Assembly: GCF_024223415.1 (NCBI RefSeq)
Contig: NZ_CP100500.1
Origin: Escherichia coli
Lineage (GTDB): Bacteria; Pseudomonadota; Gammaproteobacteria; Enterobacterales; Enterobacteriaceae
Length of the DNA: 64,000 nucleotides
Strand: one strand, 5' to 3'
Shown: one piece after another, positions 62,782 to 62,922 of the stretch
Position numbering within the stretch: the first letter of the stretch is position 1
How the letters are laid out: each line of letters begins with the position of its first letter
Translations under genes and position numbers: made by a program
Notes under the pieces: model-generated
Databases searched by the model: none
What the model was told of the DNA's origin: nothing
What the model saw: the letters and a program-made list of their open reading frames with translations, nothing else

Positions 62782-62922
62782 TTACTTAAGGTCTTTAGCT
62801 AGCCTGAATAATATTTCTGCATTTACTGAACGCATATTTTTCTTTGCTGTTTTCTTTAACTCCTCCGCTAATGCGCGGGGGATCCGTAATTTAAACTGTA
62901 AGTGCTCATCTGATTTTTTCAC
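62782..62922 (-). CDS. Arc-like ribbon-helix-helix protein, 46 aa (VKKSDEHLQFKLRIPRALAEELKKTAKKNMRSVNAEILFRLAKDLK)
   Basis: GTG start 7 nt after GGAGG, overlapping the VRR-NUC stop (GTGA); translated codon by codon to TAA at 62782-62784; absent from the ORF track. Confidence 0.7.
   Translation of the reverse strand: MKKSDEHLQFKLRIPRALAEELKKTAKKNMRSVNAEILFRLAKDLK

What the first reader, a model, noticed from the sequence alone, without database searches (positions are those of the whole stretch)
62782..62922. Unannotated 46-aa Arc-like gene, translationally coupled to the VRR-NUC gene and convergent on the Mnt-like gene
A GTG-initiated 46-codon frame with a GGAGG Shine-Dalgarno encodes a textbook Arc-type RHH N-terminus (LQFKLRIPRALAEELKKTAKKNMRSVNAEILFRLAKDL). 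It is missing from the ORF track because it is under 60 aa. Its GTG overlaps the VRR-NUC stop (GTGA), and its stop is only 18 bp from the stop of the convergent Mnt-like gene, across a short palindrome GTAAC-GAAATT-GTTAC. Two RHH repressors facing each other is an unusual arrangement.
Basis: seen in the sequence. Interest (0 to 1): 0.55.

Follow-up and report, generated by a model that had tools for sequence, protein, structure and literature searches.

The report
Small Arc-type repressor gene in prophage
A real, conserved 46-codon gene for an Arc-type DNA-binding protein sits at the end of a prophage early operon, tail-to-tail with a Mnt-type repressor gene; it is an ordinary member of a known regulator family, already named in public databases, in a rearranged P22-immI-like control cassette.

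Summary
Window 62782-62922 (-) is a GTG-started 46-codon ORF with GGAGG 7 nt upstream. Its start overlaps the VRR-NUC stop (GTGA), and its stop lies 18 bp from the stop of a convergent 104-aa gene. It matches Pfam Arc (E 6.9e-10) and P22 Arc in register. A single-chain dimer model folds as ribbon-helix-helix. Against Salmonella and Serratia relatives, synonymous sites are saturated while dN is about 0.1.

It is not unannotated: the exact protein is in GenBank as 'Arc family DNA-binding protein' on 195 contigs. The tail-to-tail pairing with the Mnt-like gene recurs in E. coli, Salmonella, Serratia and viral-contig relatives. The 5-bp palindrome is neither conserved nor stable.

Both genes belong to a cassette: small Arc, Mnt-like gene, three palindromic operators (AACCAC-N-GTGGTT) over back-to-back promoters, a 58-aa gene, and a Rha/Ant-like gene. 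The cassette fills a variable slot between VRR-NUC and SNF2 in a yfhL-integrated prophage.

Most likely the small Arc, made as last cistron of the early operon, acts on those operators. This is a P22 immI variant with arc relocated. Binding is inferred, not shown. Interest is modest.

The parts
62782..62922 (-). Small Arc-type RHH gene (46 aa, GTG start, TAA stop)
   Evidence: ORF list. Pfam Arc at E 6.9e-10. P22 Arc 1arq/1myk aligned in register, residues 4-44. Purifying selection. Exact protein in GenBank as an Arc family DNA-binding protein.
62930..62934 (-). Shine-Dalgarno GGAGG, 7 nt upstream of the GTG, lying inside the last codons of the VRR-NUC gene
   Evidence: Sequence. (G)GAGG plus GTGA is conserved in all relatives. 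The same junction is used by a methyltransferase gene in L034.
62919..63188 (-). VRR-NUC / PD-(D/E)xK nuclease gene (89 aa); its stop overlaps the arc start
   Evidence: Pfam VRR_NUC at E 8.9e-4. phrog_93 endonuclease at E 7.6e-32. PGAP names in relatives.
62449..62763 (+). Mnt-like RHH repressor gene (104 aa), convergent on the small arc gene
   Evidence: Pfam Arc at E 5.8e-12. 1mnt at E 3.8e-5. 53.5% identity to Mnt of P22-like phages over residues 1-43. 50% identity to the small Arc over 38 aa. The N-terminus is conserved and the C-terminal domain is mosaic among relatives.
62353..62365 (.). Operator O1 (AACCACTGCGGTC), about +1 to +13 of the putative leftward promoter
   Evidence: Pattern search. 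Conserved position and palindrome in relatives.
62376..62388 (.). Operator O2 (AACCACCGTGGTT; 17-bp perfect palindrome TAAACCACCGTGGTTTA), in the spacer of the leftward promoter
62401..62413 (.). Operator O3 (CACCACCGTGGTG), in the spacer of the rightward (Mnt-like) promoter
   Evidence: The flanks differ consistently from those of O1 and O2 in all relatives.
62391..62419 (+). Putative promoter of the Mnt-like gene: TTGATG, 17 nt, CATACT
   Evidence: Read from the sequence. The orthologous site in L001 (TTGATG-17-CATAAT, 9/12) is called by the scanner. It is below the scanner's threshold in the window.
62372..62400 (-). Putative leftward promoter of the hyp58-Rha operon: TTGACA (62400-62395), 17 nt, TTTACT (62377-62372); its -35 overlaps the rightward -35
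   Evidence: Read from the sequence. TTGAC(A/T)-17-TT(T/C)ACT is conserved in E. coli, Salmonella, Serratia and metagenome relatives. The scanner does not call it.
62159..62335 (-). 58-aa conserved gene of unknown function, first gene of the leftward operon
   Evidence: PGAP CDS WP_001007475.1 in relatives. Conserved in Salmonella and Serratia. No Pfam, PHROG or NCBIfam hit.
61377..62099 (-). Rha-family / antirepressor-like gene (240 aa)
   Evidence: phrog_63 'anti-repressor Ant' at E 2.5e-21. PGAP name 'Rha family transcriptional regulator'. Replaced by KilA-N/ANT or Bro-N genes in relatives.
62770..62785 (.). 5-bp inverted repeat GTAAC-N6-GTTAC between the two stops; judged a chance feature
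   Evidence: Folding z-scores -0.6 and -1.1. Not called as a terminator. Absent from relatives.
63421..63440 (-). Intrinsic terminator-like hairpin (7 bp, 6 GC, then TTTTT) upstream of the ANR-VRR-NUC-arc genes
   Evidence: conserved in L001.
63178..63399 (-). ANR-family regulator gene (73 aa), overlapping the VRR-NUC start
   Evidence: ORF list. phrog_2227. PGAP names in relatives.
59938..61332 (-). SNF2-family helicase gene, distal part of the leftward operon
   Evidence: ORF list. PGAP and Pfam names in relatives.
59741..59941 (-). Excisionase/AlpA-like HTH gene (66 aa), start overlapping the SNF2 stop (ATGA)
   Evidence: phrog_4745 and phrog_66 'excisionase and transcriptional regulator'. 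Junction sequence.
58341..59744 (+). Tyrosine integrase at the prophage end next to yfhL/shoB
   Evidence: phrog_1 integrase. Annotated context in STEC1590.

Best explanation
The 46-codon frame is a functional gene for a P22-Arc-type ribbon-helix-helix DNA-binding protein. It is the last cistron of the prophage's long leftward early operon (DNA polymerase ... ANR, VRR-NUC, arc). It is translated by coupling to VRR-NUC through a GGAGG and a GTGA overlap. It belongs to an accessory cassette: small Arc, a convergent Mnt-like repressor, three Mnt-type palindromic operators lying over two back-to-back promoters, a 58-aa gene and a Rha/Ant-like gene. This cassette is a rearranged version of the P22 immI region. 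The proposed mechanism follows. In the lysogen the Mnt-like protein, whose C-terminal domain probably makes it oligomeric, occupies O1/O2. That keeps the hyp58-Rha(Ant-like)-SNF2-excisionase operon off, and it autoregulates through O3. When the early operon fires, the small Arc is made. As a dimer, or a dimer of dimers, it binds the same operator set and resets both promoters, as P22 Arc does at Pant/Pmnt. Because no terminator separates the two convergent genes, early-operon transcription also runs antisense through the Mnt-like gene. What is shown: the gene is real, its family and fold, its coupling geometry, cassette co-inheritance, and operator and promoter conservation. What is inferred: that the small Arc binds O1-O3, and the direction of its effect.
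For: Family and fold: Pfam Arc at E 6.9e-10. PHROG Arc-like repressor families. P22 Arc aligns residue for residue, so Q9/K11/R13 sit where Arc has Q9/N11/R13. The single-chain dimer model gives strand 7-15, helix 16-28 and helix 33-46, twice, with pLDDT 86-91 in the folded blocks; its best PDB match is single-chain Arc 1u9p (prob 1.00, TM 0.63-0.70).

Real gene: dN is 0.09-0.10 with saturated synonymous sites. Length stays at 44-47 aa in 19 clusters.

Coupling: the SD and the 4-nt overlap are invariant in relatives.

Cassette: the order small Arc, Mnt-like, three operators, hyp58, Rha/ANT/Bro-N, SNF2, AlpA, int is found in E. coli, Salmonella, Serratia, metagenome and IMG/VR loci. Sister prophages at the same site lack both RHH genes, the operators, hyp58 and Rha together.

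Operators: three ACCAC-N-GTGGT sites lie within 60 bp, against 1.23 expected in the whole 64 kb. They are the only such sites in 46 kb of L003. They are conserved across genera with a variable central base. They sit in the spacers of both putative promoters. They share the GTGG core of the P22 Mnt half-site GTGGACC, which a tetramer binds on a palindrome (PMC2726951).

Shared recognition: the two proteins are 50% identical over 38 aa, and both have Q-x-K-x-R in the strand. In distant relatives with the canonical divergent Arc/Mnt layout, both proteins also carry QFKLR, and the only repeated elements between them are three RRACC-N5-GGTYY palindromes. Arc paralogues at the tail-to-tail position and at the ant-operon position recombine with each other (L010, L020).

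Rha matches phrog_63 'anti-repressor Ant' at E 2.5e-21.
Against: There is no binding, transcription or translation data. The same QFKLR strand occurs with operators whose inner 5 bp differ (CCACNGTGG, CCCANTGGG, CCTANTAGG), so strand identity does not prove that the small Arc reads these sites. In P22, Arc and Mnt use different operators. The promoters are weak matches: the scanner found none in the window. A terminator-like hairpin lies upstream of ANR, so how much early transcription reaches arc is unknown. Rha-family proteins are not proven antirepressors. The sign of regulation (shut-off of both promoters versus derepression of the Rha operon) cannot be decided from sequence.
Confidence: 0.6

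Rival explanations
1. The small Arc is a genuine RHH regulator, but it acts on a different, unidentified target, for example a promoter in the part of the prophage beyond the window or a host promoter. The three operators would be used only by the Mnt-like protein.
For: P22 Arc and Mnt recognise different operators (established knowledge; PMC2629481, gives the immI layout). Identical QFKLR strands go with different inner operator sequences. The N-terminal arms of the two proteins differ (MKKSDEHL versus MSREDA).
Against: Small Arc is gained and lost together with the Mnt-like gene and the operators. No other conserved repeat fits in the 113-bp control region. No further operator-like site occurs in 46 kb of L003, though only this motif was searched.
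Confidence: 0.17
2. The small Arc works mainly as an anti-repressor by subunit mixing. Because it lacks the C-terminal oligomerisation domain, it would form mixed RHH dimers with the Mnt-like N-domain or cap its oligomers, and so relieve repression of the Rha-SNF2-excisionase operon once the early operon is on.
For: The RHH cores are 50% identical. The small protein ends right after helix B, whereas the partner has a 60-aa helical tail. A feed-forward position at the end of the early operon would suit an inducer.
Against: Nothing tested here speaks to heterodimers. P22 Arc and Mnt are not known to mix (from memory). Residues that in Arc contact the DNA backbone and bases (Q9, R13, N29, R31, S32, N34) are invariant, which argues for direct DNA binding.
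Confidence: 0.1
3. The small Arc is an RHH partner of the adjacent nuclease, as an antitoxin-like inhibitor or as an autoregulator of the VRR-NUC operon, rather than part of an immunity switch.
For: It overlaps VRR-NUC and is co-translated with it. RHH antitoxins are common, and Pfam shows weak FitA-like and HicB hits.
Against: VRR-NUC with the identical C-terminus occurs without Arc (L033), or with a methyltransferase in its place (L034). In L015 and L016 the arc gene follows SNF2 instead. There are no PADLOC hits. Arc is downstream of the nuclease, not upstream as in most RHH antitoxin operons.
Confidence: 0.05
4. The frame is a decaying remnant or a spurious ORF.
For: It is short and GTG-started. 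Its SD and start codon belong to the VRR-NUC gene end, which exists even without arc.
Against: Strong purifying selection. Invariant DNA-contact residues. Conserved length across genera. A confident RHH dimer model.
Confidence: 0.02

Closest known systems
P22 Arc repressor (Pfam PF03869; PDB 1arr/1par)
   Same: Same family by profile and by direct sequence match, and the same length class (46 versus 53 aa). The alignment is in register, so Q9-F10-x-L12-R13-x-P15 and N29/R31/S32/N34/E36 coincide. The predicted RHH dimer best matches single-chain Arc. It is paired with a Mnt homologue and an Ant-like gene.
   Different: Residue 11 is K rather than N. The gene is not the first gene of the ant operon and is not divergent from mnt; it is the last cistron of a convergent early operon. 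This removes Arc-style autoregulation from Pant and ties its synthesis to early-operon activity. The candidate operators are Mnt-type palindromes, not the P22 Arc operator. The cassette lies near int in the early region, not in the late operon.
P22 Mnt repressor and its operator (PDB 1mnt; half-site GTGGACC)
   Same: The 104-aa partner matches Mnt over the RHH domain with the same short N-arm (MSREDAQMKIRLP versus ARDDPHFNFRMP). It has a C-terminal extension. The operators are palindromes with a GTGG core around one central base.
   Different: The C-terminal domain is unrelated and mosaic among relatives. There are three operators rather than one. The strand residues are Q/K/R rather than H/N/R.
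P22 immI region / 'ant moron' of P22-like phages (mnt, arc, ant, sar)
   Same: It is an optional, mobile cassette of two RHH repressors plus an antirepressor-like gene under back-to-back promoters. It is highly variable among related phages (PMC2629481).
   Different: The gene order differs. No sar-like RNA was found. The first gene of the ant-like operon is a 58-aa protein of unknown family. The operon continues into SNF2 and an excisionase-like gene.
Lambda-type tripartite operator with divergent promoters (OR1-3, cI/cro)
   Same: Three related palindromes about 23-25 bp apart span two back-to-back promoters. One site has consistently different flanks (O3). Two proteins are expected to compete for them.
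   Different: The proteins are RHH rather than HTH. This is a secondary switch: relatives have a separate CI/Cro-like HTH pair (L003 33471-34487). The second regulator is encoded tail-to-tail rather than divergently.

Membership tests
Arc/Mnt family of ribbon-helix-helix DNA-binding proteins (Pfam PF03869) | Significant match to the family profile | tested here: met
   PF03869 at i-E 6.9e-10, residues 9-45 on model positions 6-42 of 50. PHROG Arc-like repressor families at E 7e-9 to 5e-5. All 19 homologous clusters carry PF03869.
Arc/Mnt family of ribbon-helix-helix DNA-binding proteins (Pfam PF03869) | Strand-helix-helix topology forming an intertwined dimer with a two-stranded antiparallel sheet | tested here: met
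   The model of a single-chain fusion (Arc, 15-aa linker, Arc; 29-row alignment) gives E7-15, H16-28, H33-46 twice, with pLDDT 86-91 in the folded blocks and pTM 0.65. Best PDB hits are single-chain Arc 1u9p, then tandem-RHH TraY and AvtR; 1arq has TM 0.72 over 46 residues. Caveat: the monomer model was poor and all-helical (pLDDT 62), as expected for an obligate dimer.
Arc/Mnt family of ribbon-helix-helix DNA-binding proteins (Pfam PF03869) | Alternating polar residues on the N-terminal strand at the positions of Arc Q9, N11, R13, with the conserved G/N-R-S-x-N loop at the start of helix B | tested here: met
   Q9, K11, R13, P15, N29, R31, S32 and N34 are in register with P22 Arc. Q9, K11, R13, P15, N29, R31 and N34 are invariant in 21 homologues. 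Residue 11 is K, not N.
Arc/Mnt family of ribbon-helix-helix DNA-binding proteins (Pfam PF03869) | Sequence-specific binding to a palindromic operator as a dimer or tetramer | not testable with these tools
   Candidate operators were identified. Binding needs EMSA or footprinting.
P22 immI-type immunity region (mnt / arc-ant / sar) | Two RHH repressors of the Arc and Mnt types in one cassette | tested here: met
   They are co-inherited.
P22 immI-type immunity region (mnt / arc-ant / sar) | arc is the first gene of the antirepressor operon, transcribed divergently from mnt from overlapping promoters | tested here: not met
   In the window and its close relatives, arc lies tail-to-tail with the Mnt-like gene at the end of another operon, and the first gene of the divergent operon is a 58-aa non-RHH protein. 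The canonical layout does occur in distant relatives L022-L031, and as an extra copy in L010 and L011.
P22 immI-type immunity region (mnt / arc-ant / sar) | An antirepressor (Ant) gene under control of the two repressors | tested here: inconclusive
   The gene after hyp58 is Rha-family, with best PHROG match 'anti-repressor Ant' at E 2.5e-21. Relatives carry KilA-N/ANT or Bro-N genes there. Antirepressor activity is untested.
P22 immI-type immunity region (mnt / arc-ant / sar) | A small antisense RNA (sar) in the region | tested here: not met
   No Rfam family reaches significance in 61000-64000; the best hits are E 0.21 and 0.51, to unrelated miRNA models. A novel antisense RNA cannot be excluded.
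Type II toxin-antitoxin module with an RHH antitoxin | An RHH gene paired obligatorily with an adjacent toxin gene | tested here: not met
   The neighbouring VRR-NUC occurs with the identical C-terminus but without Arc (L033), or with other cargo (L034). Arc follows SNF2 in L015 and L016. No PADLOC hit. Only weak FitA and HicB Pfam hits.

The most novel reading that the evidence does not exclude
The tail-to-tail pair is a distinct kind of switch. Two paralogous RHH proteins would compete for one tripartite operator while their genes are transcribed into each other with no terminator between them; in relatives the ORFs overlap by 4-8 bp. Early-operon activity would then silence the Mnt-like maintenance repressor in two ways: by transcriptional collision or antisense pairing, and through the small Arc protein. 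This would license antirepressor, SNF2 and excisionase expression, so prophage excision would be coupled to early replication-operon firing in a family that includes Stx2b prophages.
Probability: 0.2. Interest if true: 0.5.

Novelty: new member of a known kind. Interest (0 to 1): 0.27.

Why it matters
The gene itself adds little. It is an Arc-family protein that annotation pipelines already call.

The context is of some use. It shows that the P22 immI logic (a Mnt-type maintenance repressor, an Arc-type second repressor and an antirepressor-like gene) exists as a mobile cassette outside P22-like phages. Here it sits in the early region of polymerase-A/SNF2/VRR-NUC prophages integrated at yfhL in E. 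coli, with relatives in Salmonella and Serratia. One relative is an Stx2b prophage whose induction failed in the laboratory (PMC12029490).

The relocated arc gene changes the wiring from autoregulation to feed-forward from the early operon. If the cassette gates antirepressor and excisionase expression, it could help explain differences in inducibility among such prophages.

The constant SD+GTG junction at the end of VRR-NUC, behind which different cargo genes are swapped, is a tidy example of how cargo is plugged into a translationally coupled operon.

Tried and rejected
1. The palindrome as a bidirectional terminator or operator was rejected. The stem is 5 bp, folding z-scores are -0.6 and -1.1, the terminator scan does not call it, and it is absent in relatives, whose ORFs abut or overlap.

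2. The AlphaFold monomer of the 46-aa protein gave pLDDT 62 and an all-helical model, which is uninformative. I replaced it with a single-chain dimer design.

3. tblastn of the small Arc against 50,697 phage genomes found no match. No isolated, sequenced phage could therefore be used as a literature anchor. Phage vB_EcoM-689R2 shares only the nuclease.

4. blastn 'distant' of 62336-62930 against complete E. coli genomes returned only 5 genomes. The 'near' search of a longer query lists more genomes with two Arc-family CDS. I did not use either as a prevalence estimate.

5. I tried to infer operator specificity from strand residues across loci. Identical QFKLR strands go with different inner operator bases, so this does not decide which protein binds which site.

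6. Rfam, PADLOC and NCBIfam (only sub-threshold TprA and DDP1 hits) gave nothing further.

7. Literature searches for this cassette found no functional study. The search for the P22 Mnt operator string found nothing and PMC55749 is not held. The Mnt half-site was taken from PMC2726951.

8. The generic pattern RACC-N5-GGTY is not enriched window-wide. Only the local cluster is meaningful.
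Full report
**Observation.** ORF 62782..62922 on the minus strand starts with GTG and encodes MKKSDEHLQFKLRIPRALAEELKKTAKKNMRSVNAEILFRLAKDLK. On the coding strand the sequence reads CTGGAGGGGATATTGTGAAAAAA. GGAGG therefore lies 7 nt before the GTG, and the GTG shares two bases with the TGA stop of the 89-aa VRR-NUC gene at 62919..63188. The TAA stop (62784-62782) is 18 bp from the TAA stop (62761-62763) of a convergent 104-aa gene at 62449..62763. GTAAC-GAAATT-GTTAC occupies 62770-62785.

**Is it a gene?** Yes.
- Pfam gives Arc (PF03869) at i-E 6.9e-10, and PHROGs gives several Arc-like repressor families.
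- phmmer against PDB sequences finds P22 Arc itself (1myk at 2e-5, 1arq at 1.7e-4), aligned residue 4-44 to residue 4-44. Q9, K11 and R13 therefore sit where Arc has its DNA-reading Q9, N11 and R13. The N29, R31, S32, N34 and E36 positions also coincide.
- A monomer AlphaFold model was poor, as expected for an obligate intertwined dimer.
- A single-chain design (protein, 15-residue linker, protein; 29-row alignment) gave strand 7-15, helix 16-28 and helix 33-46 twice, with pLDDT 86-91 in the folded blocks. Its best PDB match is permuted single-chain Arc 1u9p, followed by the tandem-RHH proteins TraY and AvtR.
- Nineteen homologous clusters, all 44-47 aa and all carrying PF03869, come from E. 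coli, Salmonella enterica and Serratia. Sixteen positions are invariant, including Q9, F10, K11, L12, R13 and P15.
- Against the Salmonella and Serratia genes, about 20 of roughly 25 synonymous sites differ, while dN is 0.09-0.10. That is strong purifying selection on this frame.

The exact 46-aa sequence is in GenBank as 'Arc family DNA-binding protein [Escherichia coli]' (EED0291332.1 and others) on 195 contigs. Its 104-aa neighbour is EED0291331.1, on 419 contigs. PGAP calls the orthologue WP_000747893.1 in complete genomes.

**Context.** The host is E. coli, and the element is a prophage integrated next to yfhL/shoB after acpS.
- In the complete relative in strain STEC1590, an Stx2b prophage at yfhL whose induction failed (PMC12029490), a CI/Cro-like HTH pair lies about 10 kb away.
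- From there a long leftward operon runs through DUF2800, DUF2815, Bro-N, family-A DNA polymerase, ANR, DUF4406 and VRR-NUC, and ends with the small arc gene.
- Next comes the lone opposite-strand Arc-family gene.
- The leftward strand then resumes with a 58-aa gene, Rha, SNF2 and an excisionase-like HTH gene, followed by the integrase.
- The same order is found in Salmonella, Serratia, metagenome contigs and IMG/VR contigs L013-L019.
- The tail-to-tail arrangement is thus the rule for this lineage.

**The partner is Mnt-like.** The 104-aa protein hits Pfam Arc at 5.8e-12 and P22 Mnt 1mnt at 3.8e-5, with residues 3-43 on 2-42. It is 53.5% identical over 43 residues to the annotated Mnt of phages L, ST64T and SPN9CC. 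Its N-terminus is nearly constant among relatives, while its C-terminal 35-100 residues are mosaic. The two RHH proteins of the window are 50% identical over 38 residues, and both read Q-x-K-x-R on the strand.

**Operators and promoters.**
- Three palindromes lie between the Mnt-like gene and the 58-aa gene: AACCACTGCGGTC (62353-65), AACCACCGTGGTT (62376-88, within a 17-bp perfect palindrome) and CACCACCGTGGTG (62401-13).
- The pattern ACCACNGTGGT with up to one mismatch is expected 1.23 times in the whole window, and three of the four matches fall within 60 bp. By a simple Poisson estimate of my own, that clustering has a chance of order 1e-5.
- They are the only such sites in 46 kb of the STEC1590 locus.
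- They are conserved in position across genera while the central base varies (C/G/A/T), as expected for a symmetric protein-binding site.
- P22 Mnt binds as a tetramer to a palindrome whose half-site consensus is GTGGACC (PMC2726951). Here the half-sites are GTGGTTT, GTGGTTC and GTGGTGC, so the GTGG core is the same.
- O3 fills the 17-nt spacer of TTGATG-17-CATACT upstream of the Mnt-like gene. The orthologous TTGATG-17-CATAAT is called by the scanner in L001, but the window version falls just below its threshold.
- O2 fills the spacer of a conserved minus-strand TTGACA-17-TTTACT, and O1 lies at about +1 to +13 of that promoter.
- The two -35 hexamers overlap. These promoters are consensus readings, not demonstrated sites.

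**The cassette is a unit.** Sister prophages at the same site have the same integrase, SNF2 and VRR-NUC but lack both RHH genes, the operators, the 58-aa gene and Rha together. FDAARGOS_144 has one unrelated plus-strand gene in the slot, and strain 85.0412 has a cytosine methyltransferase plus a small gene. Phage vB_EcoM-689R2 also lacks them. Rha's best PHROG match is 'anti-repressor Ant' at E 2.5e-21, and relatives carry KilA-N/ANT or Bro-N proteins at that position.

**Comparison with the canonical layout.**
- More distant IMG/VR loci (L022-L031) show the classical P22 immI layout. A 49-56-aa Arc gene is divergent from a longer RHH gene. Three RRACC-N5-GGTYY palindromes lie between them, and a Bro-N/Ant-like gene follows the arc gene. 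Both proteins carry QFKLR.
- L010 and L011 have arc copies at both positions. L020 is a recombinant between two such copies that has lost the Mnt-like gene.
- I therefore read the window's small arc as the arc gene of an immI-type cassette, relocated from the head of the ant operon to the tail of the convergent early operon.

**Translational coupling.** The (G)GAGG and the 4-nt overlap are invariant in all relatives. But the junction CTGGAGGGGATATTGTG belongs to the backbone.
- In FDAARGOS_144 the VRR-NUC gene ends with the same sequence and nothing follows.
- In strain 85.0412 the methyltransferase gene starts at that same GTG.
- In L015 and L016 the arc gene instead follows SNF2, with an ATGA overlap.
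- Coupling is therefore real in geometry, but it is the general style of this operon rather than an arc-specific device.

**The palindrome between the stops.** It is not meaningful. The stem is 5 bp, folding z-scores are -0.6 and -1.1, the scan does not call it a terminator, and it is absent in relatives, where the two ORFs abut or overlap by 4-8 bp. The informative point is the reverse: no terminator separates the convergent genes, so their transcripts must overlap.

**Mechanism proposed (inference).**
- The Mnt-like protein keeps the 58-aa/Rha/SNF2/excisionase operon off in the lysogen through O1/O2, and it autoregulates through O3.
- The small Arc is made only when the early operon is transcribed, past the conserved hairpin at 63440-63421. 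It binds the same operator set and resets both promoters, as P22 Arc does at Pant/Pmnt (immI summary in PMC2629481).
- Early transcription also runs antisense through the Mnt-like gene.
- The direction of the effect, and whether each protein prefers particular sites, cannot be read from sequence. Identical QFKLR strands accompany different inner operator bases in other loci.

**Rivals.**
- An unknown separate target for the small Arc (0.17).
- Anti-repression by mixed dimers with the Mnt-like protein (0.10).
- A nuclease-linked, antitoxin-like role (0.05). This is disfavoured by VRR-NUC occurring without Arc and by the absence of PADLOC hits.
- A spurious or decaying ORF (0.02).

**Verdict.** The gene is an ordinary, already-named member of the Arc family. 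The mildly new element is the rearranged immI-like cassette in a non-P22 prophage backbone, for which I found no functional study. Interest is 0.27.

Noticed in passing
window 62920-62938 (- strand); L033 around 3509-3530; L034 3476-3503: The 3' end of the VRR-NUC gene (CTGGAGGGGATATTGTG) is a constant SD+start 'docking' junction. In sister prophages a cytosine methyltransferase gene starts at the very same GTG (L034), or nothing follows it (L033). Cargo is swapped directly behind the start codon.
   Followed up: partly
window 63421-63440 (- strand); L001 5418-5437: A conserved intrinsic-terminator-like hairpin (GCCCCTGC..GGGGC plus TTTTT) lies between the upstream Ant/AP2-like ORF and the ANR gene. 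The ANR, VRR-NUC and arc genes would need read-through or antitermination to be expressed.
   Followed up: partly
window 62159-62335 (- strand): A 58-aa protein (MAIKITQLHQADIFGY...) is conserved in E. coli, Salmonella and Serratia as the first gene of the Rha operon, where P22 has arc. It has no Pfam, PHROG, NCBIfam or PADLOC match.
   Followed up: partly
L020 3001-3138; L010 5001-5135 and 5601-5735: Some relatives carry two to four Arc-family genes. L020's arc is a recombinant between two paralogous copies seen in L010, and the recombination has deleted the Mnt-like gene and the operators.
   Followed up: partly
window 62120-62160 (+ strand); L001 3822-3857: A plus-strand terminator-like hairpin (15 pairs in L001) followed by a T-run lies in the Rha-hyp58 intergenic region, antisense to those genes. 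It could stop rightward transcripts coming from the integrase side.
   Followed up: no
window 63455-63928 (- strand): A 157-aa ORF whose C-terminus resembles the end of the Ant/Bro-N proteins of relatives (..RIGKYIPPALPR) and which has an AP2/HNH-like segment. It may be the C-terminal part of a longer or disrupted antirepressor-like gene that continues towards the window end.
   Followed up: no
L003 (E. coli STEC1590) 37724-38959: The closest complete relative of this prophage carries stx2b downstream of a Q antiterminator. The window ends before the equivalent region, so whether this prophage is toxin-converting is unknown.
   Followed up: no
protein cluster of the 46-aa sequence; phrog_795 and phrog_2685: There are two database oddities. 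The 90%-identity cluster holding the small Arc is headed by a VRR-NUC protein. PHROG-derived annotations label Mnt and Arc homologues 'partition protein ATPase' (also seen on the phage SPN9CC mnt gene), which looks like a propagated misnomer.
   Followed up: no
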